Positions 5,531 to 18,472 are shown, numbered from the stretch's first letter. The stretch is DNA of 20,224 nucleotides from a virus (IMGVR_UViG_2579778929_000009); one strand, 5' to 3'. The notes: generated by a model not told the origin, from the letters alone. A program made the numbers and translations.

Positions 5531-5532
5531 TT

Positions 5533-5556
5533 AAAAAAAAGCCCGCAAAAGCGAGC
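5533..5556 (-). terminator. Putative minus-strand terminator immediately downstream of the tRNA cluster
   Basis: On the minus strand: gctcgc tttt gcgggc followed by tttttttt. The stem has one mismatch. Confidence 0.4.
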
Positions 5557-5571
5557 CAGTGAAAATAAGTG

Positions 5572-5648: not shown

Positions 5649-5661
5649 AGGATACAGATAA

Positions 5662-5738
5662 TGGACCGCCTTCGGGGACCCGAACTCCGCGCAACCAGCT
5701 TCGAAGGCTGGCGCTCTTTCCTGATGAGCTAATGGCGG
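5662..5738 (-). tRNA. argN: tRNA-Arg (anticodon UCG), argN-like; fold has some mismatches
   Basis: Manual fold: D-stem GCTC/GAGC, anticodon stem CCAGC/GCTGG with loop CUUCGAA, acceptor 6 of 7 pairs, T-stem 4 of 5 pairs. Its position between the two other tRNAs matches the ileZ-argN-argO order of Stx phages. Confidence 0.55.
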
Positions 5739-5745
5739 TATGTGA

Positions 5746-5821
5746 TGGTGGCCCTTGCTGGATTTGAACCAGCGACCTGGCGATTATGAGTCGCTCGCTC
5801 TCACCACTGAGCTAAAGGGCC
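5746..5821 (-). tRNA. ileZ: tRNA-Ile2/Met-type (anticodon CAU), ileZ-like
   Basis: GGCCCTTTAGCTCAGTGGTGAGAGCGAGCGACTCATAATCGCCAGGTCGCTGGTTCAAATCCAGCAAGGGCCACCA. Acceptor GGCCCTT/AAGGGCC, anticodon loop CUCAUAA; closely resembles E. coli ileX as I remember it. Confidence 0.85.
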
Positions 5822-5870
5822 GGGAGCAGAATAATAATGGTGCGTAATTAATTCTGCAATCTCATCCGTT

Positions 5871-6920
5871 TCAAACGATTAAATCCTGAACTTCCCTGAC
5901 TGTCTGCTCAAAACGTCCGGTCTCCAGCTCAACACCAATCGCACGACGCCCCAGTGCCATCGCCGCTTTTACCGTTGAACCCGACCCCATGAAAAAATCC
6001 GCAACCAGATCACCAGGACGGCTACTTGCGCTGATTATCTGCTGCAGCATTTCTGCCGGTTTTTCGCACGGATGTTTCCCGGGATAGAACTGCACCGGTT
6101 TATGCGTCCACACATCGGTATACGGCACCTGCACCGTCACGCCAAAATACCGCCGCAGATGTTTATATTCACTCAGCAGCTCCGCATACTGCCGGTTCAG
6201 TGAGGTATACGTATCCACCAGCTGGTGGTGGAGCTTTTCCAGTTCACCACGCCGATGCTTCTCTTCTGCCACCCGGGCAAACAGCGCCTGTAATTTCAGA
6301 TAATCGCTTTCATTCGGTAGCTGCCACTGACTGGCACTGAACCAGTGCGACACCATGTTTTTCTTTCCTGTGGCATCTGCAATCTGTTTTGCCGTTATCC
6401 CCAAGGCCGCGCGCGCATCACGAAAGTAAGAAATCAGCGGGGCCATCACATGCTGTTTCAGTGCACTGCCCTTCGCCGCATACCCGGCATCTTTCGGACG
6501 ATACGGCCCCTGATAATGTTCCGCGAACAGAATGCGCTCTGTGGCGGGGAAATACGCCCGCAGGCTTTCCTTGTTGCACCCGTTCCAGCGTCCGGACGGC
6601 TTCGCCCAGATAATATGGTTCAGCACACTGAAGCGTTCACGCATCATGATTTCGATATCAGATGCCAGGCGATGACCACAGAACAGGTAAAGACTTCCGG
6701 CAGGTTTCAGCACCCGCCAGAACTGCGCCAGACACTGGTCCAGCCATTTCAGGTAATCATCGTCGCCCTTCCACTGGTTATCCCAGCCCTCAGGCTTCAC
6801 TTTAAAGTACGGCGGGTCCGTGACTATCAGGTCAACAGAATTTTCGGGTAACGACCGGATAAATTCCAGGCAGTCGGCGTTGATTAACTCACAACTGGAT
6901 ATTTTTACAGTATTAAGCAT
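5871..6920 (-). CDS. DNA methyltransferase (amino-MTase, N6-adenine or N4-cytosine; DPPY motif precedes the AdoMet-binding motif)
   Basis: 349 aa with DLIVTDPPYF (motif IV) near the N-terminus and FFMGSGST (motif I, AdoMet binding) near the C-terminus. Confidence 0.85.
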   Translation of the reverse strand: MLNTVKISSCELINADCLEFIRSLPENSVDLIVTDPPYFKVKPEGWDNQWKGDDDYLKWLDQCLAQFWRVLKPAGSLYLFCGHRLASDIEIMMRERFSVLNHIIWAKPSGRWNGCNKESLRAYFPATERILFAEHYQGPYRPKDAGYAAKGSALKQHVMAPLISYFRDARAALGITAKQIADATGKKNMVSHWFSASQWQLPNESDYLKLQALFARVAEEKHRRGELEKLHHQLVDTYTSLNRQYAELLSEYKHLRRYFGVTVQVPYTDVWTHKPVQFYPGKHPCEKPAEMLQQIISASSRPGDLVADFFMGSGSTVKAAMALGRRAIGVELETGRFEQTVREVQDLIV

Positions 6921-7012
6921 GGATCATTAAGCCTGTCTCTGATAGGCTCATTCTGCTTTTGCGCAAAGCAGTGGGCCTGAGGTTTGCTTGTGAACCCAAC
7001 GCATGAGCAGAT

Positions 7013-7043
7013 GGCTGGTGGGTGCCCCTAACACCCACCAGCC
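7013..7043. promoter_or_regulatory. Perfect 12 bp stem-loop with no adjacent U-tract, between the small ORF and the methyltransferase gene
   Basis: ggctggtgggtg - cccctaa - cacccaccagcc. Confidence 0.4.
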
Positions 7044-7056
7044 GCCCATTTACCAC

Positions 7057-7084
7057 AAATAAAAAAGCCTTCACTGCGGAAGGC
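7057..7084 (-). terminator. Minus-strand rho-independent terminator overlapping the end of the small ORF
   Basis: On the minus strand: gccttc cgcagt gaaggc followed by ttttttattt. Confidence 0.55.
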
Positions 7085-7268
7085 GTCTGTAACAACCGAA
7101 CTGATAGTCTGCCAGACCCGCCATAACCAGCTGAGTCAGTATTAACTGGCAGCGTTCGCGTGAAAGGTAAGTATTCTGCGCAATCTCCCCGACTGTCGCC
7201 GGTTCGGTGACGCTTAATTCATTAAACACCACTCTGGCGGTTTCTGTCATATCCTGCTGTTTTAGCAT
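7071..7268 (-). CDS. Hypothetical small protein (~65 aa) downstream of Q
   Basis: ORF from the internal Met (MLKQQDMTETARVVFNELSVTEPATVGEIAQNTYLSRERCQLILTQLVMAGLADYQFGCYRRLPQ) with a weak AAGGGA Shine-Dalgarno. No family recognised. Confidence 0.35.
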   Translation of the reverse strand: MLKQQDMTETARVVFNELSVTEPATVGEIAQNTYLSRERCQLILTQLVMAGLADYQFGCYRRLPQ

Positions 7269-7388
7269 GTCTTTTTCCCTTTTCCGGTTAACGTGACACA
7301 CCAATAACTCTTGTCGAAAAAGCCAGCAAGCTGAAAGACAGGTATTCACCGCCACCAGCGCGTTTACTGTACTGACGCGATTTCAGTC

Positions 7389-7412
7389 ATAAAAAACCCG
7401 CCAGGCGGCGGG
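7389..7412 (-). terminator. tR-prime-like terminator downstream of the Q gene
   Basis: On the minus strand: cccgcc gcct ggcggg followed by ttttttat. It lies ~85-105 bp downstream of the Q-like stop. Confidence 0.55.
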
Positions 7413-7461
7413 GTGTAAAAAATCTTCTAACGTCAGGCATAAAACGCCTATCGTTAGAGCA

Positions 7462-7489
7462 AATTTACCACAGATTCGGGAAAAATCAA
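7462..7489 (-). promoter_or_regulatory. Candidate late promoter (pR-prime-like) on the minus strand, just downstream of Q
   Basis: On the minus strand: TTGATT, 16 nt spacer, TAAATT. Its position immediately after the Q stop and before the terminator is analogous to lambda pR-prime/qut/tR-prime. Confidence 0.35.
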
Positions 7490-7494
7490 CAACA

Positions 7495-8316
7495 CTATCG
7501 CGTTACCCTCTTTAACTGCCGCTCCGCCCATGCCTCTTCAATGTCAAACCGAACCACCAACGTATCGTAAAAGCGTTTCACTGATTTTTTCCACGTATCA
7601 AGCGTGATAGCACTCGTCACTTTGCGTATGGCATTAAATGCCTCCGTTGATGGTAGTCTTTCACAGCCACGACCACCACAACGCTGGCAGTCTCTGATAA
7701 CAGGCATACCACGTTTTACCGACTCTTCACGATGAATGGCAACACCACGCCCACGGCAGTCTTTACAGGCAGTGGAAATCTCCCCCTTCCCTTTACATTC
7801 AGGACAAGAAACTTTCACCACCTCCCGAATTTTTTTCCATTCTTCCCAGTAAGACGGATACACACCTTTCGTACACTTTGCCCATACTGGCGGCTTGCCA
7901 TCCGGATACTGAACCTTGTTTGTAAAAACTTCGCCTTCAATAAATTTTTCCCCTCGGCAACAGGGGCACTGCTTTTTACTCGCTGCGCTGCGGGCATAAT
8001 CCTCAAAAGCGTACGAAGCCATAATGCGCATCACTACCGGTTTTATTTCTGCCGGAAGTTTTCTCAACGCCGCCACACGATCGCACCGACTGAGTGCATA
8101 ATCTGCCAGTAATTCTGTTGCCCGCGCCCTGTCATTCATACTGATGCCCATTTTCCCCAGGAACGCAGAAAACCCCATCTCAGCCCGATTCTGTGTCATG
8201 CCCTGCGCGGCCATCACATCAGTGATACTCAGCGCATCTTTCGACGTTGAGGCCGATGCATCAGTCAGGCCGGGGGATTTTGGGGAGTAGTATTTCGGTA
8301 AATCTTCCAGTTTCAT
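7495..8316 (-). CDS. Putative late antiterminator Q-like protein with DnaJ-type zinc-finger repeats
   Basis: 273 aa, located between RusA and the late promoter/terminator. The C-terminal half carries CxxCxGxG repeats (CPECKGKGE, CKDCRGRGV, CQRCGGRGC and one CPCCRGEK variant). The Q assignment is positional; the N-terminus MKLEDLPKYYSPKSP resembles my recollection of the Qin QuuQ start. Confidence 0.5.
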   Translation of the reverse strand: MKLEDLPKYYSPKSPGLTDASASTSKDALSITDVMAAQGMTQNRAEMGFSAFLGKMGISMNDRARATELLADYALSRCDRVAALRKLPAEIKPVVMRIMASYAFEDYARSAASKKQCPCCRGEKFIEGEVFTNKVQYPDGKPPVWAKCTKGVYPSYWEEWKKIREVVKVSCPECKGKGEISTACKDCRGRGVAIHREESVKRGMPVIRDCQRCGGRGCERLPSTEAFNAIRKVTSAITLDTWKKSVKRFYDTLVVRFDIEEAWAERQLKRVTR

Positions 8317-8693
8317 TTTTTGACCTGCTCTTCATGCATTATGGGGTAAATCTTCACCCCCAGACGTCCACCAGATACTGGCTGACCACGAACGATATTG
8401 ATTTCATCAAACTGCTCATCGTCCATTAGCAACCCCGCATGCGTCAGCGCATCCAGCGGCGCTTTCAGAATATTGTCCAGATCACGGCGGCGCTTATCCG
8501 GTGGTTCTGCAATAATTTTTATTGCCAACCTTCCGGACAGGCTTAATTTCAGCCGCTGCTGGCGAACAATAAGCGCCACTGCCCGGCGATAACGCTCCCC
8601 GGCTTTTGATACAAAATATGTGCTGCCACGACGACGCCAGTAAGTGTTCACCGTTGGCGGGTAAGGCAAAACAAATTCTATGCGTTCAGTCAT
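8313..8693 (-). CDS. rusA: RusA-family Holliday junction resolvase
   Basis: 126 aa. LPYPPTVNTYWRRRG and PDKRRRDLDNILKAPLDALTHAGLLMDDEQ match the RusA motifs I remember (LPWPPSNNRYY…, [20 protein letters not shown]…). Confidence 0.85.
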   Translation of the reverse strand: MTERIEFVLPYPPTVNTYWRRRGSTYFVSKAGERYRRAVALIVRQQRLKLSLSGRLAIKIIAEPPDKRRRDLDNILKAPLDALTHAGLLMDDEQFDEINIVRGQPVSGGRLGVKIYPIMHEEQVKK

Positions 8694-9752
8694 TTATGCT
8701 TTCCACTTCAGAACACCCGAATTTCTCGCGTGCATTAAAAAACGAATCAGCAACAACAGCTGGCTGCCGTGTTTTTCTTCAAAATCTTTTACCCCGGCGT
8801 GTAGTTCGCTATGGCATTTACGGCACAGCGGAATAACAAACAAATCATCAGCCTTTGTTCCCATCCCTCCCAGTCCATGACCAATGATGTGATGCGGATC
8901 ATCTGCCTGATTGCCACACGTCATGCATTTCTGCGTTTTTACCCAGCGCGTGTATACAGGCATCTCTTCCCGTTGTGATTTCTGGCGCTGGAGATACTGA
9001 GCCGGTGACTCGGGATCAACGGCAATGCTGACCACCGTCTTTTCCTGTGGTGGGTTCTGTTGCTGGTGGGCGTGAGGCAGCGGCGCAAGATTTTTTGTGC
9101 GCTGTTTCAGTATGCTGGTGGCGGTCTGCTCTCCCGGTATGATGTCGCTTTCACTGTACACAGAGCGAATTTTTTCCGCACGCAACCCCAGCGAACGACG
9201 TAATACCGCTTCCGGTAGCGCGTCCGCCACCTGATTGCGGACCGCCCACCAGGATAATTCAGCCAGAGATAATTCACGCTCCTGCGTACCGCTTATTGCG
9301 TGACCGATGACGTCAATCATCCATGCTGACAGGTTTTGATGAGCAAGTTGCCCGAGTGATTCGGATGTCTGGTCACGCAGCTGGTTGTCGCAGTGCCAGC
9401 ACAACACCATTGCGCCGGTACCATAACGGTGAATGACGGTTTCGCTGTGATGATAATCGCCGTGTGGCCACTGGCAGGATTTAATATGGCGCAACAGCCA
9501 GTCAGACAATGCACCAGCACCACCAGCAGCACGAATCACCCGTGCGTTACTGAAAAACGGCAGCAATGTTTTGTCTTCCACCAGCGGCTGGCGAGCGGCA
9601 GGAACGACCCCGGACGGCAGATTACGCATGCTTTTTGGTTCCGGCTCCACCAGTATTCTGCCGTTATGGAATGCTGACATTGATTCACGGCCTGGCTTAA
9701 CGATAACCAGACCGAGTTCCGGTACCAGAACAGATCGAAGTAATACCCGCAC
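8694..9752 (-). CDS. DUF968/YdfU-like prophage protein with a C-terminal HNH-like Cys/His cluster
   Basis: 352 aa (Qin YdfU is ~349 aa as recalled). The C-terminus has CMTCGNQADDPHHIIGHGLGG…CRKCHSELH, a CxxC…HH…CxxCH pattern. Confidence 0.65.
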   Translation of the reverse strand: MRVLLRSVLVPELGLVIVKPGRESMSAFHNGRILVEPEPKSMRNLPSGVVPAARQPLVEDKTLLPFFSNARVIRAAGGAGALSDWLLRHIKSCQWPHGDYHHSETVIHRYGTGAMVLCWHCDNQLRDQTSESLGQLAHQNLSAWMIDVIGHAISGTQERELSLAELSWWAVRNQVADALPEAVLRRSLGLRAEKIRSVYSESDIIPGEQTATSILKQRTKNLAPLPHAHQQQNPPQEKTVVSIAVDPESPAQYLQRQKSQREEMPVYTRWVKTQKCMTCGNQADDPHHIIGHGLGGMGTKADDLFVIPLCRKCHSELHAGVKDFEEKHGSQLLLLIRFLMHARNSGVLKWKA

Positions 9753-9753
9753 A

Positions 9754-10032
9754 TTACCTCCAGATCCGTTGCTGGAATGTGCGGGACGGACGCGCTGGCC
9801 GTTCTGAGTAAGGGAGCCTGACGGAGATTATCCAGTGACGGTAGTCGAGGCTAAGGGCTTTTTTAACCTCGCATCCGCGCCCGCGGTAACACTGAATGAG
9901 CCATTCAGCCTGTTCTTCGGTGCAGGGGTCGTGCTGATACCAGTCAGATTTGAATGCATGAGAACGCCGCCCGTGCCTGCTGGCAGGGGCGGCAGAGTTA
10001 TCCGAATTGTAAAATTTGGTATCGTGCGCCAT
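9754..10032 (-). CDS. Hypothetical nin-region protein (92 aa)
   Basis: ORF immediately upstream of, and probably coupled to, the DUF968 gene (stop and start 1 nt apart). No family recognised. Confidence 0.45.
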   Translation of the reverse strand: MAHDTKFYNSDNSAAPASRHGRRSHAFKSDWYQHDPCTEEQAEWLIQCYRGRGCEVKKALSLDYRHWIISVRLPYSERPARPSRTFQQRIWR

Positions 10033-10083
10033 CTGTTTTCTCTGCTGGCGCAGCAGGTGCCAGTTGTTCAGGCTGACGTATGA

Positions 10084-10111
10084 AGTATAAATAAACTGGC
10101 TCCAGTGTAAA
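10084..10111 (-). promoter_or_regulatory. Candidate sigma70 promoter on the minus strand for the nin/Q operon, at the edge of the AT-rich island
   Basis: On the minus strand: TTTACA, 16 nt spacer, TATACT, about 45 nt upstream of the 10032 start. Confidence 0.4.
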
Positions 10112-10299
10112 GCCCCACCTTAATGGAATAAAAACCAAACAACAGATTGCTGGGATAAAAATACAACGCTTATTATTAAAAGCGGTTAGATAAATTAAAT
10201 TTTAATGTTATGCAAATCTGCCAGATTAGCATAATATTTCATTTGAAAACCGCTGAAATAACAATCTTATCGGGATTAATCATATTAAGGTGAGTAAAT

Positions 10300-10386
10300 A
10301 TGGAAAACAACAAATCTGCACATTACGCTCCTTTTTTATCTGTAATACTTTTTGTATTTTGTTGTGTATGGGCGGTATTTTTATAA
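10300..10386 (+). CDS. Candidate 28 aa hydrophobic peptide (MENNKSAHYAPFLSVILFVFCCVWAVFL)
   Basis: An AAGGTGAG Shine-Dalgarno lies 5 nt upstream of the ATG. The product is a single predicted transmembrane helix. It is convergent with the protease gene and separated from it by a strong bidirectional terminator. It is too short for the six-frame track. Confidence 0.35.
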   Translation: MENNKSAHYAPFLSVILFVFCCVWAVFL

Positions 10387-10403
10387 AACACACCCACAAA
10401 TAA

Positions 10404-10436
10404 ATCAAACCCGCTACAGCGGGTTTGATTTATATA
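10404..10436. terminator. Strong bidirectional rho-independent terminator at the 3' end of the ATPase-protease operon
   Basis: atcaaacccgc - taca - gcgggtttgat: an 11 bp stem with T/A-rich flanks on both sides, 5 bp after the protease stop. Confidence 0.7.
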
Positions 10437-10440
10437 GTTG

Positions 10441-12705
10441 TTATACGGAAACTGGCACACGAGCAGGCAATGGATAGTGAGCCCAGTTATTAGCATTTAA
10501 AGCTCTTACGCCATCAGCATAAACTTGTGTTTTTCCATCTAATGATTTTAAAGTTACTACAATAGTTACAGGTAAAGGCTCCATTAAGGCCGGTTCATTC
10601 GCTCTCAACGTTGTTTTAGCTTGAAGAGCCCAGTTACCCGAAGTAATTCCTTTATTAAATGCCTTGCGATGAATTTTTACTGGTGACCACTTTCCACCAT
10701 GCTCAATTTGAGCTCTCTCATATCCAGATTGACCGTTTTCTCCTTCCATAGGTACTTTTCCTTTTATAGTATTATTCTCAATTAAGCCAAAACTTAGCTC
10801 TACGTTCGCGCGAACATATTCACTGCCGGCATTAGGGTTCAGTGGTGGTGCATATGCAGCAGTAATTACAATCTCACCTTTAAATTTTCCATTTTGAATA
10901 AGTGCCGATGGTATGGGATAGTTTTCCTTTCTCCACCTCACCCCAGGAACCAAGAATGTTTGGAAAATCAGAGTAAACCTATCATCACTATCATATAAGG
11001 TCTCAATAACCTCATTAGGAATTCCCGCTCCCAAATAGCGTCTTTCACTTGGCGAGTAATCAGGAGAAGATAATTGAGCGGAATGAATTAATAATGCTTT
11101 AATCAATGATGGTGAAACATTAAAGTCTGAATTAGTGGCTATTCTCTGCCATGTATGCGCAGCTAAACTTGCCACAATTGGAGCAGCAAAACTAGTACCA
11201 AAATTAGAGCAAAGCCTATTATCTGGCCCTACGACCTTTAAACTGCTTGCTCCTACATTCCAAGGTCTATGAACCCCACCGCCAGCATGGATTATATCTG
11301 GCTTTGGAGTAAATACAGGCCCAGGGCCACGACGAGTATATGGTGTCGGTGTTCCAATTTCACTTAAAGCATCATTAGCTTCCATATGAGAAACTGAACC
11401 AACTGTTAGTGCTCGGACTGACTCTCCAGGAGAGGAAATTAAATCAGCACCTCCAAGCGGATCAGGATTTGGCCATGTACGTATAGGTTCATCTACATAA
11501 TTACCTGCAGCAACTACAAACAAAATACCAAATTTATCGCTGAGCCGATCTAACTCCATCGCAAAATCACTAAACATCTGCTCATTACATGGTCCGCCTC
11601 CCAAAGATAAATTCCAGACTTTTATATCTGGTCTTTTATTTACAGCATCTGCTAGCCTCAGAATTAAATCTGATATATAAGATCCATTTTCATCTAAAGC
11701 ACAAACATCATGGATTTTAGATTTTGTATCAGGAATCCATGGATGATTGTCATTTAAAAAATGAGCGCCTGATATCAATGAAGACACCATAGTCCCATGT
11801 TCATAACTCGTATCAGGAGGAATTACGTATGTTTCCCTACTCACTACCCAAGGAGTAATTGTTGCCGCGATGGGGCTTACCCCAGTGTCAAATACAGCAA
11901 CAATGGGTAATTCTTCTGATGGTACGGGAAAGCTATTTGTTTCAATGCCAACAGAATCACTTACACTAACCGGGAATGCTGAATATTTTGGTTCTGGAAT
12001 TAACGTTCTTATACCCGGGTAATCAATGAGAATGTCTAATATATATCTATCATTTGGGGATAAATCCATTATCCTTAATAAGGGAAGACCACATTTTGGT
12101 CTAATCTCATCATATTTAACTCCGTGTTGTTCTAATATAGAAATAACGTTTTCATAGTTGTTGTAAGTTGCATCTTCACCTGTGTACTCAAATAGTCGTA
12201 CAAGGATGTTTGATGATTCAAACAAACCATCAGTGCCTCCTGGAACCTTCCTATTCTCATCCCAAGGTTCAATGCGCTCAATCGCGCTTAGATTAGCCAA
12301 AATCGCTTTAATATTCCGATGTAAAATGACTGACTCTAATACGTCAAAACAGCCGGCATGAGCAGCAACCAACATTTCATCTATTTTGGCATGACCGGCA
12401 TTTTGCAATCCAGCCTCTTGAGCAATTTTGTTCGGCCTATGCGTTTTGGCTATTCCCTGGTCTCTTAATTTGAAAACCAAAGTACCCAAGCTTCCAGGGT
12501 ACTCTGAAAGTTTGGATTCTAAATAATGTTTACTGGTTGTTAAATTTCTTACTAGCCCTTGTCTATATTCGGCTGTTACATCAACCAATACCTTTGCCCC
12601 ACCGCCAGCGTTTACTATTGCACCCAAGTCACTACTGGAAAAAGGGATTCTTAACATTGGGTTTGTAACTTTTGCGTTACTAAACTGTGTACCCCTTCTG
12701 CTCAT
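10441..12705 (-). CDS. S8 subtilisin-like serine protease (IetS-like) with a ~260 aa N-terminal and ~200 aa C-terminal extension
   Basis: 754 aa. Catalytic signature in canonical order: Asp (VAVFDTGV), His (YEHGTMVSS), oxyanion Asn (VVAAGNY), Ser (GTSFAAPIVAS). An AGGAG Shine-Dalgarno precedes the start; the start overlaps the ATPase gene by 26 nt. Codon usage is AT-rich. Confidence 0.8.
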   Translation of the reverse strand: MSRRGTQFSNAKVTNPMLRIPFSSSDLGAIVNAGGGAKVLVDVTAEYRQGLVRNLTTSKHYLESKLSEYPGSLGTLVFKLRDQGIAKTHRPNKIAQEAGLQNAGHAKIDEMLVAAHAGCFDVLESVILHRNIKAILANLSAIERIEPWDENRKVPGGTDGLFESSNILVRLFEYTGEDATYNNYENVISILEQHGVKYDEIRPKCGLPLLRIMDLSPNDRYILDILIDYPGIRTLIPEPKYSAFPVSVSDSVGIETNSFPVPSEELPIVAVFDTGVSPIAATITPWVVSRETYVIPPDTSYEHGTMVSSLISGAHFLNDNHPWIPDTKSKIHDVCALDENGSYISDLILRLADAVNKRPDIKVWNLSLGGGPCNEQMFSDFAMELDRLSDKFGILFVVAAGNYVDEPIRTWPNPDPLGGADLISSPGESVRALTVGSVSHMEANDALSEIGTPTPYTRRGPGPVFTPKPDIIHAGGGVHRPWNVGASSLKVVGPDNRLCSNFGTSFAAPIVASLAAHTWQRIATNSDFNVSPSLIKALLIHSAQLSSPDYSPSERRYLGAGIPNEVIETLYDSDDRFTLIFQTFLVPGVRWRKENYPIPSALIQNGKFKGEIVITAAYAPPLNPNAGSEYVRANVELSFGLIENNTIKGKVPMEGENGQSGYERAQIEHGGKWSPVKIHRKAFNKGITSGNWALQAKTTLRANEPALMEPLPVTIVVTLKSLDGKTQVYADGVRALNANNWAHYPLPARVPVSV

Positions 12706-13834
12706 ATGCTCCTGACTCCTTCAGAATGTTTGAAATTACTCTTGATGTAAGTTTGTACAAATTAGCAAGAACTCTGATAGAAAATAATTTTTTATCTTTA
12801 GAACGTAACCAACGAATTTCATCTTCGTAAGTGCTTAAATTTACACCTTCCATAAGCGATTGCGCAAGATACAAACGCCTATACAATTTATGGTGATTTA
12901 TCACACTTGCACCTTCAATAACTGCATCCCTACGTGCATCCAAGCTCACCTGTTCAATTATTGCTCCGGATAATCCCTCCGATTTTCTTGATAAATCACT
13001 TAAATCTAGATCGCTACATATCATATTCTTTAAACGATTTTTCCAAATTAACTCTCTCTGATGTATGTCAGGCAGAGGCATTGGAATTCTGAAGCTAAAT
13101 CGCCTCCAGATTGCAGGATCCAGAAGTTGCTCATGGTTAGTTGAGGCAATAATTACCGTATCCTCTGATGCCGCATCCATATTCTGCAATAGTGAAATGA
13201 CAACTCGCTGAAGCTCACCTATATCTCTCTCATTACCTCTTGCTCCAGCTAAAGCATCAAATTCGTCTAAAAAAAGCACTGATGGCCTCTGCATTACATA
13301 ATCGAAAACCTGTCTAAGATTTTTGCTGGTTTGTCCCAATAAACTACTAATCAAAGTATCGCAACGCACTGTAAGAAGTGGAAAATCTAAGCGGGTAGCG
13401 ATGTACTTAGATAACATAGTCTTACCTGTTCCTGGCTTTCCATACACGAGCATACGACTCGGCAATGCTGCATCAGCTTTAACAAACTCATCATAACGTT
13501 GAACATTAGTGATAAACTCTTCAACACGGGTACTGATTGCTGCAGGCAGAAAAATCTCTGAACTGTCTAATTTAGGATAACTGACATCAACAGTGTTGAG
13601 TCGACTATCAATATCTACCGGTAATGAGCCCAGAGATATCCCACCTCCAGCCCTTTGAGCTCCTGCCAACGCCTGGGGAGCTCTAAGCAACCTTTCTCTT
13701 ATCATTCTGGCTTGCTTGACCTCCCCTTTTTGTTCGAGCTTATCTGCCAGCAACCCAGCATAATTACTAGCCATCGAAGCATTTGCCTTTGTTGCACCTT
13801 CAATGATTTTTAACACTTCTGATAAATAATCCAT
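12680..13834 (-). CDS. AAA+ ATPase (IetA-like)
   Basis: 384 aa. Walker A GKPGTGKT, Walker B VLFLDEFD, sensor 1 IIASTNH, arginine-finger region PAIWRRF. A GGGAG Shine-Dalgarno precedes the start. First gene of a two-gene operon with the S8 protease. Confidence 0.8.
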   Translation of the reverse strand: MDYLSEVLKIIEGATKANASMASNYAGLLADKLEQKGEVKQARMIRERLLRAPQALAGAQRAGGGISLGSLPVDIDSRLNTVDVSYPKLDSSEIFLPAAISTRVEEFITNVQRYDEFVKADAALPSRMLVYGKPGTGKTMLSKYIATRLDFPLLTVRCDTLISSLLGQTSKNLRQVFDYVMQRPSVLFLDEFDALAGARGNERDIGELQRVVISLLQNMDAASEDTVIIASTNHEQLLDPAIWRRFSFRIPMPLPDIHQRELIWKNRLKNMICSDLDLSDLSRKSEGLSGAIIEQVSLDARRDAVIEGASVINHHKLYRRLYLAQSLMEGVNLSTYEDEIRWLRSKDKKLFSIRVLANLYKLTSRVISNILKESGAYEQKGYTV

Positions 13835-14027
13835 TCAACACTCCCACAACAAAAAGCCACAGCAATCAAAAAATGAGCACACAGAATCAAAATACTCTCT
13901 AATCGTAACGCATTTTGAGATTTTTGATACGTTTTTTTGGGATTATGTAACGCCAAATGGTCATTTTGTGTCAGAAAAATAAATCTTAGTACCGAGAATA
14001 TGTAGCTTCCATCCTTCATCGTTCTAT

Positions 14028-14459
14028 TCATCCCTGATCTCCAAGCCTCTCTCGAAAACCATTCTGATAAAACGCCAGCACACGCTGCATAACTTCGCTC
14101 TTCCGGCACTCGCGACAGATTATGTTCAGACGCCTGTCGTAGCGGCGTATTTCTCCGTCTGGTAATGACCAGATAAGGTCCGGATCAACCACAGATGGTT
14201 TCTTCACCTTTGCCCTGGATAGTTTTTTGCGGGCATTTTGCCAGTCCTTACGAGCCTGTTCAGACGGGAATAACCCGTAACCAGAGTTGTATACATCGCC
14301 ACTGGCAACCAGCTCTCTGGCGAGAACGCTCATCAGATATCTTGTCGCACCTGTCTTGGCTTCCAGTTGCCGTAACGTCTCGCGCCCACTCCGGCGTACT
14401 AGCTCAACAACCTGCCCTTTAATTTTTTCCCGCTCTTCTTGTGTAAATACTTTTGCCAT
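14028..14459 (-). CDS. Hypothetical protein (143 aa from the internal Met with a GGAGG Shine-Dalgarno)
   Basis: ORF with a good ribosome-binding site at the Met beginning MAKVFTQEEREKIKG; the six-frame ORF extends 5 codons further upstream. Basic C-terminus containing CRECRK. No family recognised. Confidence 0.45.
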   Translation of the reverse strand: MAKVFTQEEREKIKGQVVELVRRSGRETLRQLEAKTGATRYLMSVLARELVASGDVYNSGYGLFPSEQARKDWQNARKKLSRAKVKKPSVVDPDLIWSLPDGEIRRYDRRLNIICRECRKSEVMQRVLAFYQNGFRERLGDQG

Positions 14460-14474
14460 AAGCGCCTCCGGCAA

Positions 14475-15287
14475 TCACTTTTCCGATACAACACGGCGGG
14501 AAGAATCAGTAATCTGTCGAACAATATCCCGGTGCTTGTTCAGCTCCCGCAGCGCGGCGCAGACTCGCTCCCACTTCTGGACATGATTTTTCGCCCGACG
14601 CAGTTCGCGGTTTGCCATATGCAGTGATGGTAAAACCAGGTCATCCGCTCGCGTTTCAGTAAACGATGGCAGCGACTGCACAATGTCCGCCACAGTTTCT
14701 GTTTTAATATCTTCCTGTGTTGCAGCCTCCTGTACTGGTAACGCAACACCTGCGGTATGAGGAAAGGCCTTACCATCAGTTTCCGCTACCGATGCTGCTT
14801 TCGGCTCTGCTGGTAAATTATCGCCCGGTATGCAGTAACGAAATTTACCGCCCTGATTTACGCGAATCAGACGACCTTTGCTGATTGCCATTGCCAGCGT
14901 TGAAGCCACTTTGCGTGATGTGGTACCAAACAATGTAGCCAGCTCATCAGCCATTTGTGGTCCTCGTTGTTCAATCGTCGCGGTTAAATCGCACTCTGAG
15001 ATTTTCGCTACTGTTGCTGTGGTGATTTCTTCCGGCAGTTCTGCCTGCGCTGGCTGTTCCTGCTGAACGTTGTTATCAGCCACACGCCAGGTGTACGCGC
15101 TTTTATCAACAAAACCAGCCTTTTTCAGTTCCCATAGTTCGTTCAGCACTTCTTCACGACTGATATCAAGTCGCGCAGCAAGTTCTATGGATGTGGCTTT
15201 TCCCATTGCTTTCAGTGCGTCAAAAACAGTCTCCATTAAATTTTTCTCCCGGTAAAAATTACTTCGCAATTCCTGGCTGGACGACAT
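14475..15287 (-). CDS. Hypothetical protein with two putative winged-helix/HTH-like segments
   Basis: 270 aa; an alternative start at 15236 (METVFDAL…) is possible. Segments [30 protein letters not shown] and [28 protein letters not shown] look like DNA-binding helices. It follows the DnaC-like gene. Confidence 0.45.
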
Positions 15288-16005
15288 TCGGACGCCAGCT
15301 CTCCCAGTTAAAATTCACCCATAGCCCGCCGTTCATGGTCATGCGATCCATAATCCGCTCGCCGAGCAATGTTTTCATGGCCTCATAGTTCAGGTTTGTC
15401 AGCATCCCCACGCTGCGCATCGACGCTGTCCGGCGATCAACAATCTGGTGCAGTACCACCTGCTCGTTTTTCGTCTCGCGCTGAATGCCAATTTCATCAA
15501 GAACCAGCAGATCCACTTCGCACAGTTCCCGCAAAAATTTTTCGCCTGACTGCCCATCGTCATAGCTGGCGTGGAGGGCACTCATAACATCAGCCACGGT
15601 AACCACAATCACTGTCTGACCGTCTTTCAGCAGGCGATTCCCGATAGCTGCTGCTAAGTGGTTCTTCCCGGTACCAGGTTTTCCGCTAAACGCGAAATTT
15701 GTGCATCCGGTCATCAGTTCATCAGCGATAGATTTCGCCTGGCTCAACGCGTATCGCTGACCGTCGTTCTGCACCTGGTAATTCGCAAACGAGCATTTAC
15801 GGTGCAACGGCTGGATGCCTGAGCGATTCAGAATTTTTTCCACCCGCAACTGGCGATTCAGGCGGTTGATCTCCTCGCTACGTTTCTGGCCTTCAGCAAG
15901 TTGCCACTCGTGCCACTCCGCTACCGTTCTGAATGGGGCGGTTACATGTGGCGGAGCCAGTCTTCGGATACGTTCAAGAACGCCGCCTGCCGCAATGTTT
16001 TTCAT
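15259..16005 (-). CDS. DnaC-like replicative helicase loader (YdaV/IstB-type AAA+ ATPase)
   Basis: 248 aa. Walker [16 protein letters not shown], Walker [10 protein letters not shown]. Located directly downstream of the O-like initiator. Confidence 0.85.
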
Positions 16006-16011
16006 GACACG

Positions 16012-16974
16012 TCACCCCCTGAATCCCGGCGGTATTTCAGTGTCCGGTTCAGAAATGTGATTCACGCAACGCTGCGCAGGCAAACGCCCCAGGCGGATAA
16101 CCAGTTCATCCCATTTTTCCCGGAGTTTTGCCGGACTCATGATGTTTTTTACCCAGAACGAATCCCGCTGGAGACGCCCAAACATTTCACAAATTTGTCT
16201 GTGAGTTCTGCCATCCAGCATCCGCATTGTGCGAACGTCATTGGCCCATGCTGTCCAGTTGGGTTCTTTCGGTCTAGTGATCTCGCCATCATAGCTGGCC
16301 GCCTGCTCGTAAAGACTCACGATTCGTCCCCAGATCCACTGTGCGCACACCAAATCTTCCTGACTTCCCCACTGGCGTTTTTTCGCACTGAACACAACCG
16401 CGTCAGGGTGTCGGGTTAAAAAATCCTGTTCAGCCGTCTGCGGGTCCGGTTGCGAAGCGTCCGGACAAGAAGATCTTTTATCTGACGGATCAGGTTTTAA
16501 TACTGACGGATCGGGGTCAATCATCGGCCCCCTAATCGGCAGTTTTTTATCAACAGTTGATCCATCAAAATTTGACGGGTCAACCGTTGAGGGGTCAATA
16601 TTTGACGGGTCAACTGTTAACGGGTCATTTTTTGCCGGGCTAATTTTTCTTTTCGGTTTATATGACTCACGCGCCGCCGCCGCAGCTGCTTCGAGTTTTT
16701 CCACATTAAGCCGATAGATATTGCTTACATTACGCCCACCGACCTTACGCTCTTCCTTCGTCAGCCAGCCCTCTTTCGCCAGTTCTGCAATAGCCGATTT
16801 CACTGTGGATTCACTTCTTGCACCGATCTGACGCCGGATAGTTTCAATGGCAGGCCATGACACGCCCTCGTCATTGCTGTAGTCTGCAAGACGGGCCATA
16901 ACCGCCACCCTGGATAAGATCATGCCGGTGAAGGCGCACCCTTCCCAGACAAGACCATGAAGCTTGCTGCTCAT
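16012..16974 (-). CDS. Replication initiator (lambda O-like, YdaU-type) containing origin iterons
   Basis: N-terminal HTH-like region (ARLADYSNDEGVSWPAIETIRRQIGARSESTVKSAIAELAKEGWL). Central repeated peptide DPSNIDPSTVDPSNFDGSTVD is encoded by the iteron DNA. ATG at 16974; the six-frame ORF starts at a GTG at 16989. Confidence 0.7.
   Translation of the reverse strand: MSSKLHGLVWEGCAFTGMILSRVAVMARLADYSNDEGVSWPAIETIRRQIGARSESTVKSAIAELAKEGWLTKEERKVGGRNVSNIYRLNVEKLEAAAAAARESYKPKRKISPAKNDPLTVDPSNIDPSTVDPSNFDGSTVDKKLPIRGPMIDPDPSVLKPDPSDKRSSCPDASQPDPQTAEQDFLTRHPDAVVFSAKKRQWGSQEDLVCAQWIWGRIVSLYEQAASYDGEITRPKEPNWTAWANDVRTMRMLDGRTHRQICEMFGRLQRDSFWVKNIMSPAKLREKWDELVIRLGRLPAQRCVNHISEPDTEIPPGFRG
16483..16640. 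repeat. Iteron-like direct repeats (candidate replication origin) inside the initiator gene
   Basis: Several copies of TGACGG(A/G)TCA-like units, including two long near-identical units tttgacgggtcaaccgttgaggggtcaata and tttgacgggtcaactgttaacgggtcat, followed by an A/T-rich stretch. Confidence 0.55.
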
Positions 16975-16996
16975 AAACCCCCCGAACACCGTGCTT

Positions 16997-17422
16997 TTAG
17001 TGCATCACCACAGCATTCCCTGCCGGGCCGCCGCGATTCATCTGGTCATACAAAACAACCGCTGACGCAACAAAATCATCGACATCCTTCCCCAGCCGAT
17101 CCCTCCGTTCGACGATCTCACGGTAATATTCAGAACTGTGGCTGCGCATACGGGCCACCAGCAAAGGCGGCATCGCCTTTTCGATCGCCGGTAACAGAGC
17201 CTGCATTTTTTCAACAGCATCAGGGGTGTCTTTATCCAGCCAACGGAAAATTTTCTGGGTATTACGGGCCAGGGCTTCCGGATGGCTGTCGTCATACAGT
17301 TCCGGGAACGTCATTCCCAGCTCGAAATACGCTTTGGTAATTTTCGCAGCCGGCACTTTTTCGCCGTCCGGATGCGCCCAGACATTCATCGCCATGCGGA
17401 TGTGTTCATGCTTGATTTTCAT
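16997..17422 (-). CDS. YdaT-like protein (CII-position gene of Rac-type immunity regions)
   Basis: 141 aa. The N-terminus MKIKHEHI matches my recollection of Rac YdaT. It follows the Cro-like gene. Confidence 0.65.
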   Translation of the reverse strand: MKIKHEHIRMAMNVWAHPDGEKVPAAKITKAYFELGMTFPELYDDSHPEALARNTQKIFRWLDKDTPDAVEKMQALLPAIEKAMPPLLVARMRSHSSEYYREIVERRDRLGKDVDDFVASAVVLYDQMNRGGPAGNAVVMH

Positions 17423-17687
17423 GAATCAAGCTCCTAGAAAGTGGTTGTGTTAACGTTTTGGTATCTTCCAGCTCGGGCCAAATATTCATCCAATCAAAAG
17501 GCCTTAGTTGCTGACGTGTAACTTCACCATTACTGGCTCGCTCAATAAGGACACATAACGATGCCCCTAACACTTGACCTTTACTCAATGCCTTTCTTAG
17601 ATAACCGATGCTGGTACCACACTCGCATGCAAACATACGCTGTTCATCTGACGAAAGAGAATTGAGAAATATTCTTAATTCTTCCAT
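17406..17687 (-). CDS. Cro-like HTH regulator (YdaS/DicC family)
   Basis: 93 aa. HTH CGTSIGYLRKALSKG; the C-terminal ERASNGEVTRQQLRPFDW resembles YdaS ERATRGEVLCEELRPDIDW (from memory). Perfect AAGGAG Shine-Dalgarno. Divergent from the repressor gene. Confidence 0.7.
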   Translation of the reverse strand: MEELRIFLNSLSSDEQRMFACECGTSIGYLRKALSKGQVLGASLCVLIERASNGEVTRQQLRPFDWMNIWPELEDTKTLTQPLSRSLIHENQA

Positions 17688-17787
17688 AGCTACTCCTTAG
17701 TAAACACAGCAAAGAATACCCACAGGTAAACAAAAGTCAATACCCACAGGTTGTTTACCTTGCGGTAATCGCATCTATTATTTACCT
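17688..17787. promoter_or_regulatory. Divergent immunity-region control region (OR-like) with operator half-palindromes and promoters
   Basis: Two TACC-N4-GGTA-type sites, tacccacaggta (17717-17728) and tacccacaggtt (17741-17752), 24 bp apart. Minus-strand promoter: TTGACT then TATTCT upstream of the Cro-like gene. Plus-strand TATTAT -10 ends about 7 nt before the repressor ATG, implying a leaderless or near-leaderless mRNA. Confidence 0.5.
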
Positions 17788-18207
17788 ATGGACAAATATG
17801 AATTTAGACGACAGCAACTCATCAAAATTCGTGATGAGAAATGCGATGGTAAAGCGGTTAACGTGGCCAGAAAGATCGGGCGCGAGCCTTCTTATGTATC
17901 AAGAATGTTGTACCCAGAGGGGAAAAAGGGAAAAAAACGGATCGCTGATGATATGGTGGAGATTATCGAAGAGTCCTTTGGGTTACCCCGGGGATGGATG
18001 GATGGTATCGTTTCATCATCAACGAACACAGCCTCCAGTTATGAAACAAGGGTTCTAACGCCACGACAACGTATTTTTTTAGATCTCTTAGACGAACTGC
18101 CAGAAAGTGAAGCGGATAAATTATTAAAAACTCTTGAAGAGAAAAAACAGTATTACAATATGATCTACGAAGAAATCCGTAAAAAGAAAGCACAAAACGC
18201 ATCATAG
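17788..18207 (+). CDS. Prophage repressor, DicA-like C-terminal domain with an N-terminal HTH
   Basis: 139 aa. HTH GKAVNVARKIGREPSYVSRMLY. The C-terminal LTPRQRIFLDLLDELPESEADKLLKTLEEKK resembles DicA …LSPKELELLELFNALPESEQDTQLAEMRARV (from memory). No Shine-Dalgarno upstream of the ATG. Confidence 0.65.
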   Translation: MDKYEFRRQQLIKIRDEKCDGKAVNVARKIGREPSYVSRMLYPEGKKGKKRIADDMVEIIEESFGLPRGWMDGIVSSSTNTASSYETRVLTPRQRIFLDLLDELPESEADKLLKTLEEKKQYYNMIYEEIRKKKAQNAS

Positions 18208-18249
18208 CTCACCAAACAACTAGTCACCAGTTAAGACACCGCAAAAATT

Positions 18250-18290
18250 TACCCATGGGTATTTACTTTTTAAATACCTATGGGTATCCT
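18250..18290 (+). promoter_or_regulatory. OL-like operator pair and candidate pL-like promoter downstream of the repressor gene
   Basis: Perfect palindrome tacccatgggta (18250-18261) and tacctatgggta (18275-18286), 25 bp apart, bracketing a candidate promoter (TTTACT, 17 nt spacer, TATCCT) oriented toward the ydfA-like to dicB genes. Confidence 0.45.
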
Positions 18291-18472
18291 TCTTTTCATA
18301 CCAACCCACCCCGCCCCACAGAATGCAGGGCAATACTTCGAGTTACCAGGCAGTGGTCAGGGGTTAAGTAGCCAGCCCGAGGCGTAAGAACATGACGGCA
18401 GGGTTCAACTTTAATAACTATGCAGCAGGTTTTTGTTCCGCTACCCCGGCGTTAAGGGGAAATGAGGTCAAC

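What the first reader, a model, noticed from the sequence alone, without database searches (positions are those of the whole stretch)
10112..14027. Compositionally distinct ~3.9 kb island with defined edges between the replication module and the nin/Q module
The AT-rich block begins just right of a minus-strand sigma70-like promoter (10084-10111) that would drive the nin/Q genes, and ends near 14027 at the stop of an upstream phage gene. It therefore looks like a discrete cargo insertion rather than part of the ancestral phage backbone. The exact junctions and any flanking direct repeats could not be determined by eye.
Basis: partly seen in the sequence, partly recalled or inferred. Interest (0 to 1): 0.5.

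Follow-up and report, generated by a model that had tools for sequence, protein, structure and literature searches.

The report
IetAS anti-phage cassette in prophage
The AT-rich block is real and is the already-known two-gene IetAS anti-phage / toxin-antitoxin system (an ATPase plus a subtilisin-like protease), carried as swappable cargo in a lambda-like E. coli prophage, so it is ordinary.

Summary
Window ~10,083-14,060 has GC 0.39 against 0.51 for the rest (z = -14.5). GC3 is 0.27-0.33 in the island genes and 0.44-0.62 in the flanking genes.

The island encodes ietA (12,680-13,834, minus strand) and ietS (10,441-12,705, minus strand). Both score above NCBI's curated equivalog cut-offs and match the PADLOC models over nearly their full length. 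RefSeq annotates a 100%-identical copy as iteA/iteS. The cargo reading is supported: only 78 of 5,426 complete E. coli genomes carry the cassette, while the flanking DUF977 (Ren-like) gene occurs in 77%. The same slot elsewhere holds hokD, relBE, QueH or almost nothing.

No target-site repeats, terminal inverted repeats or recombinase gene were found. The junctions lie in conserved backbone sequence: inside the last ~12 codons of DUF977 (~14,045-14,064) and at a conserved terminator hairpin (10,400-10,433). This points to module exchange by recombination between lambdoid prophages, not to insertion.

One refinement: the lowest ~330 bp of the AT-rich tract (10,092-10,399) is not ietAS cargo. 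It is a separate, unannotated module present in 1,184 of 5,426 genomes.

Novelty is low: the system and its prophage location in E. coli are already published.

The parts
12680..13834 (-). ietA (PGAP name 'iteA'): 384-aa classical-clade AAA+ ATPase, described in the literature as the antitoxin/regulator partner. Walker A GKPGTGKT at residues 132-139, Walker B FLDEFD at 188-193, sensor-1 N233, Arg pair R244-R245.
   Evidence: Pfam AAA 2.6e-30. PADLOC IetA PDLC02196 8.9e-143 over residues 1-374 of 384. NCBIfam NF042959 equivalog 526.6 bits against a cut-off of 510. Motifs. Nearest solved structures are p97/Cdc48 D2 domains at 1e-53; no IetA structure exists. phrog_3757 at full length.
10441..12705 (-). 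ietS ('iteS'): 754-aa subtilase (peptidase S8) with unassigned N-terminal (~1-260) and C-terminal (~550-754) regions, described in the literature as the toxin/effector. D273, H303, N402 and S505 are all present. Its start overlaps the end of ietA by 26 nt.
   Evidence: Pfam Peptidase_S8 5.6e-26 over residues 268-544. PADLOC IetS PDLC02197 6.3e-300 over residues 12-753. NCBIfam NF042956 equivalog 1039.4 bits against a cut-off of 900. Motifs and overlap. phrog_3964 at full length.
13835..13956 (-). Conserved ietA upstream region that travels with the cassette. It holds a GGGAG ribosome-binding site 7 nt before the ATG and two copies of GCGTTAC (13,953-13,947 and 13,911-13,905). It is the probable regulatory region, but no promoter could be assigned.
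   Evidence: DNA homology to the Citrobacter copy ends at window 13,956. Long invariant runs in alignment A4. The sequence was read. No promoter-like site of at least 9/12 matches falls here.
13957..14063 (-). High-coordinate junction segment. It is found only with E. coli ietAS copies and includes the last 12 codons and the stop of DUF977 (14,028-14,063). Homology to ietAS-free prophages resumes at 14,045-14,083, most often at 14,064.
   Evidence: Breakpoints. In one search all DUF977 hits outside ietAS carriers start at query position 18, 37/38, 53 or 56.
10400..10433 (.). Perfect 16-nt-arm hairpin (GC core AAACCCGC-TACA-GCGGGTTT) with T-rich sequence on both sides, 7 nt after the ietS stop codon. 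It is a likely bidirectional intrinsic terminator and is the low-coordinate junction of the ietAS-specific DNA.
   Evidence: I5: 100% complementary arms. A hairpin core is present in all eight backbones aligned in A1 (mismatched in L007 and L009), and sequence diverges within or after it; the divergent copies L011/L012 lack it. 100% identical between the two ietAS backbones.
10092..10399 (.). Separate AT-rich module (GC ~0.25-0.33) that is not ietAS-specific. It occurs in 1,184 of 5,426 E. coli genomes, is never annotated, and usually lies between hokD and the first nin-side gene.
   Evidence: distribution. (contexts). (alignments). Absent from the K-12 Qin prophage.
10300..10386 (+). Unannotated 28-codon ORF (MENNKSAHYAPFLSVILFVFCCVWAVFL) with an AAGGTGAG ribosome-binding site (10,286-10,293). 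It has a polar N-terminus and an 18-residue hydrophobic tail, and it converges on ietS at the hairpin. Probably a small membrane protein.
   Evidence: The ORF is intact with the same length in 9 of 9 copies, including the ~73%-identical ones. It is variable at 28% of sites against 56-85% in neighbouring segments, with variable sites split 5/7/12 by codon position. No match in Rfam, NCBIfam or PHROGs. The exact peptide is not in the protein collection.
10084..10111 (-).
   Evidence: Both hexamers are invariant in 9 copies while the spacer varies. No expression data.
10050..10082 (.). Universal boundary block (GCAGCAGGTGCCAGTTGTTCAGGCTGACGTAT) upstream of the first nin-side gene in every backbone examined. 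It is the point where homology switches between backbones.
   Evidence: The Rac-type ietAS prophage matches from 10,050. ietAS-free backbones match up to 10,075 or 10,091. Near-invariant columns in A1 and A3.
14028..14474 (-). Flank: DUF977 / Ren-like exclusion protein gene, the last gene of the replication-side module. Its 3' tail is exchanged together with the cargo.
   Evidence: Pfam DUF977 2e-28. phrog_142 'Ren-like exclusion protein' 2.6e-46. Present in 4,165 of 5,426 genomes.
9754..10032 (-). Flank: 92-aa hypothetical phage protein, the first gene of the nin/Q-side module. It is followed by DUF968 (8,694-9,752), RusA (8,313-8,693) and Q (7,495-8,316).
   Evidence: phrog_1212 1.3e-34.

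Best explanation
The AT-rich block is accessory cargo in the variable slot between the replication genes and the nin/Q genes of a lambdoid E. coli prophage, the position equivalent to the lambda ren|nin boundary. The cargo is the two-gene IetAS system. IetA is a Cdc48/Vps4-like AAA+ ATPase. IetS is a subtilisin-like serine protease.

From published work, IetS is a toxic protease that IetA holds in check (a toxin-antitoxin relationship). The pair protects against phages by abortive infection once a phage protein triggers it. Carried in a prophage, it would protect the lysogen from other phages and could also stabilise the prophage.

Shown here: the identity of the genes, intact catalytic motifs, the cargo status, the exact homology breakpoints, and the absence of insertion signatures.

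Inferred: the cassette moved between lambdoid backbones by homologous or homeologous recombination. The two crossover points would be the conserved 3' part of the DUF977/Ren-like gene and the conserved terminator hairpin or ~33-bp boundary block. The cassette would be expressed from signals within its conserved 120-bp upstream region and/or by read-through from the phage early operon, and it would terminate at the hairpin.
For: Identity: PADLOC IetS 6.3e-300 and IetA 8.9e-143, both over nearly the full length. NCBIfam equivalogs above curated cut-offs, 1039.4 against 900 and 526.6 against 510. RefSeq annotates a 100%-identical locus as iteA/iteS. D/H/N/S and Walker A/B motifs are intact, and ietA overlaps ietS by 26 nt.

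Cargo status: the cassette is in 78 of 5,426 genomes and DUF977 in 4,165. The slot elsewhere holds hokD, hokD+relBE, QueH(+hokD), a 5-kb set of small genes, or ~260 bp of spacer. The same cassette is found in a Rac-type backbone and in phage record vB_EcoS-683R6.

Exchange: block 10,400-14,474 is >=99.4% identical between backbones, while the adjacent segments are 91-97% identical. A Citrobacter copy also follows a lambdoid ydaV-like gene, and its DNA homology is limited to window 10,441-13,956. No target-site duplication or inverted repeat was found, and no recombinase gene.

Composition. Relatives in Citrobacter and Pseudomonas are also GC-poor against their flanks.

Literature: protease as toxin and ATPase as antitoxin, protease activity needed for defence, anti-phage mechanism still unknown (PMC13069673; PMC8562856). 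Abortive infection, with toxicity triggered by a phage gene (bioRxiv 10.1101/2022.08.27.505566). E. coli ietAS located in prophages and cloned from ECOR52 (bioRxiv 10.1101/2022.08.21.504612). Lambda acquires DNA from defective prophages by relaxed homologous recombination (PMC3945230).
Against: There are no functional data for this particular copy. In the one E. coli study read here, single systems including ietAS gave only limited protection against a 29-phage panel. No consensus promoter could be assigned upstream of ietA, so expression in the lysogen is not established. The toxin-antitoxin and abortive-infection properties come from homologues in Agrobacterium, Bacillus cereus and an E. coli three-gene variant, not from this cassette. 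The recombinational route is inferred only from breakpoint positions; a single illegitimate event followed by spread would leave similar traces.
Confidence: 0.88

Rival explanations
1. The cassette acts mainly as an addiction (post-segregational killing) module that keeps the prophage in the chromosome. Any anti-phage effect would be secondary.
For: IetAS was first described as a plasmid-stabilising toxin-antitoxin pair on pTiC58 (cited). An ietA mutant could not be constructed. In other prophages the same slot holds classical addiction modules, hokD and relBE. E. coli ietAS alone gave limited phage protection.
Against: Anti-phage activity and abortive infection triggered by a phage gene have been reported for homologues. 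The two roles are not mutually exclusive, and nothing in the sequence separates them.
Confidence: 0.3
2. The island is a self-mobile element, such as a transposon, an integrative element or a site-specific cassette, that inserted into the prophage.
For: It has sharp compositional edges and appears in more than one backbone.
Against: No direct repeats flank the edges and there are no terminal inverted repeats. No transposase or integrase ORF lies inside. Both junctions fall in sequence conserved among backbones, namely the DUF977 3' end and the hairpin/boundary block. Flanking DUF977 is co-transferred at 99.5% identity.
Confidence: 0.03
3. The AT-rich tract is ancestral backbone whose composition merely reflects regulatory or H-NS-bound DNA, like the AT-rich immunity region of the same prophage.
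For: A second AT-rich stretch (about 17,250-19,500, GC 0.40-0.48) covers the cro/cI-like immunity region. Part of the tract, the 10,092-10,399 module, is indeed widely conserved slot DNA.
Against: ietAS is missing from more than 98% of genomes that carry the flanking genes. Other cargo occupies the slot in those genomes.
Confidence: 0.03
4. The pair serves the phage's own lytic cycle, for example as an ATP-dependent protease for host takeover, and is expressed from the early operon rather than in the lysogen.
For: It is co-oriented with, and embedded in, the early rightward-type operon (cro-like, O-like, ydaV, DUF977, ietA, ietS, then nin/Q). No promoter of its own could be identified. IetA resembles the unfoldase partners of AAA+ proteases.
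Against: Most related prophages, including closely related backbones, lack it. Homologues on plasmids and chromosomes act as toxin-antitoxin or defence systems. The 120-bp upstream region is conserved with the cassette across genera.
Confidence: 0.05

Closest known systems
IetAS (PGAP: IteA/IteS) anti-phage system; originally the IetA/IetS toxin-antitoxin pair of Agrobacterium plasmid pTiC58
   Same: The gene order (AAA+ ATPase then S8 protease), the co-orientation with overlapping genes, the protein lengths, the nearly full-length matches to the family models above curated cut-offs, and the intact catalytic motifs all agree. Identical proteins are already named IteA/IteS in RefSeq.
   Different: Nothing distinguishes it at the family level. 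It belongs to the enterobacterial subtype (best PADLOC models PDLC02196 and PDLC02197). It lacks the extra SNF2 helicase of the ietHAS variant. Its carrier is a prophage rather than a plasmid.
Lambdoid-phage morons and the ren/nin-region accessory slot (mosaic module exchange)
   Same: The position immediately after a Ren-like gene and before the nin/RusA/Q genes matches. So do the composition foreign to the backbone, the terminator at the distal end, the different cargo in related phages, and the junctions in short conserved sequences.
   Different: A classical moron carries a recognisable promoter of its own. None could be assigned here. The exchanged unit also includes the 3' tail of the neighbouring DUF977 gene.
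Prophage and satellite defence hotspots (P2/P4 hotspots, Rousset et al. 2022, PMC9122126)
   Same: The concept is the same: a fixed inter-gene position in a temperate phage family holding alternative defence or toxin-antitoxin cargo.
   Different: The phage family (lambdoid/Rac-like) and the flanking genes differ. I did not find this particular DUF977|nin slot described as a hotspot in the searchable literature, but that search was shallow.
Two-component AAA+ proteases and Cdc48/Vps4-type unfoldases
   Same: The IetA ATPase domain aligns to p97/Cdc48 D2, PAN, FtsH and CdvC. It is paired with a protease.
   Different: The partner is a subtilase, not a self-compartmentalised protease. The genetics describe the ATPase as an antitoxin rather than an activator. 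By eye, the position of the pore-loop aromatic residue reads S-L-L-G (residues 164-167), which was not verified by alignment.

Membership tests
IetAS defence / toxin-antitoxin system | Two adjacent, co-oriented genes: an AAA+ ATPase followed by an S8 (subtilase) peptidase | tested here: met
   ietA is at 12,680-13,834 and ietS at 10,441-12,705, both on the minus strand, with a 26-nt overlap.
IetAS defence / toxin-antitoxin system | IetS scores above the curated equivalog cut-off | tested here: met
   NF042956 scores 1039.4 bits against a cut-off of 900, covering profile positions 1-747 of 747. PADLOC PDLC02197 6.3e-300.
IetAS defence / toxin-antitoxin system | IetA scores above the curated equivalog cut-off | tested here: met
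   NF042959 scores 526.6 bits against a cut-off of 510, covering profile positions 1-367 of 367. PADLOC PDLC02196 8.9e-143.
IetAS defence / toxin-antitoxin system | Catalytically competent protease (Asp/His/Ser triad plus oxyanion Asn) and ATPase (Walker A/B, Arg fingers) | tested here: met
   IetS has FDTG (D273), HGT (H303), AAGN (N402) and GTSFAAP (S505). IetA has GKPGTGKT, FLDEFD, N233 and R244-R245. This is motif-level evidence only.
IetAS defence / toxin-antitoxin system | IetS is toxic and neutralised by IetA; the pair reduces phage plating | not testable with these tools
   Known only from the literature on homologues.
Lambdoid moron / accessory cargo slot | Lies between two backbone genes that are adjacent, or separated by other cargo, in related phages | tested here: met
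   In L003 only about 260 bp separate DUF977 from DUF968. Other loci hold a Hok/Gef-family or hokD gene, QueH, relBE, or a 5-kb set of small genes.
Lambdoid moron / accessory cargo slot | Composition distinct from the backbone | tested here: met
   GC 0.39 against 0.51, and GC3 0.27-0.33 against 0.44-0.62.
Lambdoid moron / accessory cargo slot | Own terminator | tested here: met
   A 16-nt perfect hairpin at 10,400-10,433 with T-rich flanks lies 7 nt after the ietS stop. Its function was not tested.
Lambdoid moron / accessory cargo slot | Own promoter | tested here: inconclusive
   No site with at least 9/12 matches falls in 13,835-14,027. The 120 bp upstream of ietA is conserved with the cassette in Citrobacter.
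Transposon / integrative element | Target-site duplication or terminal inverted repeats at the edges | tested here: not met
   No repeat pair spans the two junctions.
Transposon / integrative element | Encodes a transposase or integrase | tested here: not met
   Only ietA, ietS and a 28-codon ORF lie in the tract.
Type I toxin-antitoxin locus (considered for the 28-codon ORF at 10,300-10,386) | Small hydrophobic peptide gene with a conserved reading frame | tested here: met
   The ORF is 28 codons in 9 of 9 copies. Mean Kyte-Doolittle hydropathy of residues 11-28 is +2.6.
Type I toxin-antitoxin locus (considered for the 28-codon ORF at 10,300-10,386) | Overlapping antisense RNA, or a match to a known toxin or antitoxin RNA family | tested here: not met
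   No Rfam family matched; the best hit was Leu_leader at E = 0.7. A minus-strand promoter-like site lies at 10,306-10,279 (9/12 matches). The candidate downstream hairpin at 10,184-10,167 is not maintained in the divergent copies. No toxicity data exist.

The most novel reading that the evidence does not exclude
The ~330-bp AT-rich module at 10,092-10,399 may be an uncharacterised functional unit of lambdoid prophages. It sits beside ietAS here and beside hokD in most other prophages, occurs in ~22% of complete E. coli genomes, and is never annotated. In this reading it encodes a conserved 28-residue membrane peptide that could be toxin-like. Together with the conserved terminator hairpin and the conserved outward promoter, it would insulate the variable cargo slot from the nin/Q genes and restart their transcription.
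Probability: 0.3. Interest if true: 0.4.

Novelty: already known. Interest (0 to 1): 0.15.

Why it matters
It matters little for discovery. IetAS is a catalogued defence system, identical copies are already annotated in RefSeq, and its residence in E. coli prophages has been reported.

The useful by-products are practical. First, there is now a base-level description of how the cassette is bounded in lambdoid prophages: the DUF977/Ren-like 3' end on one side and a conserved terminator hairpin on the other. This could help in mining the same slot for other cargo. Second, a widespread unannotated small ORF and promoter module lies next to that slot.

The biochemical mechanism of IetAS is still unknown, namely what the protease cuts and how the ATPase restrains it. 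This natural prophage copy with its native flanks would be a reasonable experimental substrate.

Tried and rejected
1. I searched for target-site duplications and terminal inverted repeats across 9,900-14,300. Only short, scattered, chance-level repeats turned up and none bracket the island. The 15-nt imperfect repeat D12 (13,812-13,826 and 14,057-14,071) has both copies on the same side of the island.

2. An Rfam scan of 9,500-14,600 at E <= 1 gave only a sub-threshold Leu_leader hit at the hairpin.

3. I looked for a consensus promoter upstream of ietA by tool and by eye. Nothing was convincing.

4. I tried to find a K-12 annotation for the 28-codon ORF. The Qin prophage has rem in that position and lacks the module.

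5. An exact look-up of the 28-aa peptide and two variants in the protein collection found none on record.

6. A search of solved structures found no IetA or IetS structure, only generic p97/Cdc48 and distant subtilase matches.

7. The plasmid search found only a 69%-identical Acidovorax ietAS. The two E. coli records it returned are 4.8-4.9 Mb, chromosome-sized, and hit only the AT module.

8. The scan of species-representative genomes returned just 3 loci, because single-protein queries reach only close relatives.

9. Gao et al. 2020 and Yamamoto et al. 2009 are not held in the paper library, so both are cited only through papers that cite them.

10. I did not run structure prediction or the large homology searches, because the family assignment was already unambiguous.

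Full report
**1. The observation**

The window is a lambdoid E. coli prophage. It is 99.87% identical over window 931-20,224 to E. coli strain 102651, NZ_CP189662.

The sliding GC profile shows a sustained trough. GC is 0.36-0.43 across 10,001-14,250. It is 0.53-0.56 just below the trough and 0.51-0.52 just above it. In 100-bp windows the fall occurs between ~10,050 and 10,100 and the recovery between ~14,000 and 14,060.

Window 10,083-14,056 has GC 0.3905 against 0.505 for the rest (z = -14.5). No non-overlapping window of equal length drops below 0.465.

Third-position GC is 0.27 for the large gene and 0.33 for the smaller one. It is 0.44-0.62 for eleven flanking phage genes.

The stop of the upstream phage gene is indeed at 14,028-14,030. 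The sigma70-like hexamers at 10,111-10,084 on the minus strand exist, TTTACA-16-TATACT.

**2. What the island contains**

Two overlapping minus-strand genes fill the tract. The first is a 384-aa AAA+ ATPase (12,680-13,834). The second is a 754-aa subtilase (10,441-12,705).

They match the IetA and IetS models of PADLOC over nearly their full length (8.9e-143 and 6.3e-300). They exceed the curated cut-offs of NCBI's equivalog models: 526.6 against 510 for IteA_antiphage and 1039.4 against 900 for IteS_antiphage. RefSeq already annotates the identical locus as iteA/iteS. The exact proteins are on record many times in E. coli, and IetA relatives more than 90% identical are on record in Citrobacter.

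The protease keeps its Asp273/His303/Asn402/Ser505 motifs. The ATPase keeps Walker A, Walker B, sensor-1 and an Arg pair. The two genes overlap by 26 nt.

Both proteins also have dedicated full-length PHROG families of unknown function, so they recur in phage genomes. No solved structure exists. IetA's nearest solved relatives are p97/Cdc48 D2 domains.

**3. Cargo or backbone?**

The cassette is present in 78 of 5,426 complete E. coli genomes. The gene just upstream is present in 4,165. That gene is DUF977, which PHROGs label as Ren-like exclusion protein.

The flanks are a replication module and a nin/Q-type module. The replication module holds an O-like gene, a DnaC/IstB-like ydaV, DUF1627 and DUF977. 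The nin/Q-type module holds a 92-aa gene, DUF968, RusA and the Q antiterminator. The island therefore sits where lambda has its ren|nin boundary.

Related prophages hold other cargo between the same flanking genes:

| Locus | Content of the slot |
|---|---|
| L003 | Almost nothing (~260 bp) |
| L004 | A Hok/Gef-family gene |
| L005 | A QueH remnant |
| L006 | A 5-kb set of small genes plus hokD |
| L007 | QueH plus hokD |
| L008 | hokD plus relBE |

The same ietAS cassette also occurs in a different, Rac-type backbone whose downstream genes are DUF1367/DUF1364/DUF1133. That arrangement includes one deposited phage record, vB_EcoS-683R6. Only 7 genomes have the arrangement seen in this window. 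The other 71 high-coverage matches break at window ~10,048-10,050.

A Citrobacter freundii contig carries an 81%-identical cassette, again directly after a lambdoid ydaV-like gene. Pseudomonas relatives (56-60% aa identity) are also GC-poor relative to their surroundings.

The 'cargo' interpretation is therefore supported.

**4. The junctions**

*High-coordinate side.* Every ietAS-free DUF977 allele aligns only from window ~14,045-14,083 upward, most from 14,064. The last ~12 codons of DUF977 and the 193-bp spacer are linked to the cargo.

*Low-coordinate side.* This side is layered.
- ietAS-specific sequence ends in or at a perfect 16-nt-arm hairpin (10,400-10,433). A hairpin core, AAACCCGC-NNNN-GCGGGTT, is present in all eight backbones aligned (mismatched in two of them); the two most divergent copies of the AT-rich module lack it.
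- Window 10,092-10,399 is a distinct AT-rich module that ietAS-bearing prophages share with hokD-bearing ones.
- Window 10,050-10,082 is a ~33-bp block conserved in all backbones.

DNA homology to the Citrobacter copy spans exactly 10,441-13,956. This delimits the core cassette plus a conserved 120-bp upstream region. That region contains two GCGTTAC motifs and a GGGAG ribosome-binding site.

No direct or inverted repeats bracket the island, and it encodes no recombinase. Between the two E. coli backbones, block 10,400-14,474 is >=99.4% identical. The AT module is 95-97% identical and DUF1627/ydaV are 91-95% identical.

Together these facts point to recent exchange of a 'DUF977-ietA-ietS-hairpin' segment by recombination within conserved backbone sequence. 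This is the experimentally documented way lambdoid phages acquire DNA from resident prophages (PMC3945230). It is not site-specific insertion. This step is inference from breakpoint positions.

**5. How it most likely works**

From the literature, IetAS was first described as a plasmid-stabilising toxin-antitoxin pair, with the serine protease as toxin and the AAA ATPase as antitoxin (Yamamoto et al. 2009, as cited in PMC13069673 and PMC8562856). It was then found to be an anti-phage system (Gao et al. 2020, as cited).

A Bacillus cereus homologue behaves as an abortive-infection system whose toxicity is unleashed by expression of one phage gene. Protease activity is required for defence, and an ietA mutant could not be constructed.

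In E. coli the system is noted to lie in prophages. It was cloned from ECOR52 and on its own gave limited protection. As of 2026 the anti-phage mechanism is stated to be unknown.

My best account is that in the lysogen IetA restrains IetS. A protein from a superinfecting phage would relieve this restraint, and IetS proteolysis would then arrest the cell before the invader completes its cycle. The same toxin-antitoxin logic could penalise loss of the prophage. None of this was tested for this copy.

Transcription signals are unresolved. No consensus promoter lies upstream of ietA. The cassette is co-oriented with the phage early operon, and the hairpin 7 nt after the ietS stop looks like a bidirectional terminator.

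**6. The separate AT-rich module (10,092-10,399)**

This piece accounts for the lowest-GC part of the tract (0.25-0.33) but is not ietAS cargo. It occurs in 1,184 of 5,426 genomes and is never annotated. It typically lies between hokD and the first nin-side gene. K-12 Qin lacks it.

It contains a + strand 28-codon ORF (10,300-10,386; MENNKSAHYAPFLSVILFVFCCVWAVFL) with a good ribosome-binding site. Start, stop and length are conserved in all nine copies examined, including the ~73%-identical ones. Site variability is 28% in the ORF against 56-85% in neighbouring segments, and third codon positions vary most (5/7/12).

This gives some support to the idea that they drive the nin/Q-side genes.

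No Rfam, NCBIfam or PHROG family matches the ORF or the module. I regard it as a probable unannotated small membrane-protein gene. A type I toxin role is only a possibility.

**7. Verdict**

The content is a textbook member of a known defence / toxin-antitoxin family that public annotation already names. Novelty is 'already known' and interest is low.

The incremental results are the base-level junction map, the evidence for recombinational rather than insertional acquisition, and the adjacent unannotated small-ORF module.

Noticed in passing
window 10,092-10,399 (ORF 10,300-10,386, + strand): An AT-rich ~330-bp module found in 1,184 of 5,426 E. coli genomes and never annotated. It holds a conserved 28-codon hydrophobic ORF (MENNKSAHYAPFLSVILFVFCCVWAVFL) with a ribosome-binding site, converging on ietS. 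In other prophages it sits next to hokD.
   Followed up: partly
window 10,050-10,082: A ~33-bp block (GCAGCAGGTGCCAGTTGTTCAGGCTGACGTAT) that is nearly invariant upstream of the first nin-side gene in every lambdoid backbone examined, whatever the cargo or the downstream gene. Its function is unknown; it could be a 5' UTR element or a recombination boundary.
   Followed up: partly
window 13,953-13,947 and 13,911-13,905 (minus strand): Two copies of GCGTTAC, 42 bp apart, in the ietA upstream region. Both are conserved in the Citrobacter cassette. They may form an operator for autoregulation.
   Followed up: no
window 14,028-14,474: The DUF977 gene matches PHROG 142, 'Ren-like exclusion protein' (2.6e-46). 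Its last ~12 codons differ according to which cargo lies downstream, so the protein's C-terminal tail is swapped together with the cargo.
   Followed up: partly
window ~17,250-19,500: A second, milder AT-rich stretch (GC 0.40-0.48) covers the divergent cro-like/cI-like immunity region. The cro-like and cI-like genes have GC 0.41.
   Followed up: no
window 5,572-5,821 (minus strand): Three phage-borne tRNA genes lie between the DNA methyltransferase and the DUF6645 gene: Arg-TCT, Arg-TCG, and a CAT-anticodon tRNA. ARAGORN calls the last one Met, while RefSeq annotates it as Ile, which implies a lysidine-modified Ile2 type.
   Followed up: partly
NZ_CP043542.1 (E. coli F2_81), hit H8: In one strain an IS3-family transposase is annotated within the ietAS locus, listed between iteS and iteA, so an IS3 element appears to have inserted into the cassette there.
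   Followed up: no
IetA residues 164-167 (window ~13,334-13,345): By eye, where classical AAA+ unfoldases carry the aromatic pore-loop motif (aromatic-hydrophobic-Gly), IetA reads S-L-L-G. This was not verified by a formal alignment. If correct, it may argue against a processive unfoldase activity.
   Followed up: no
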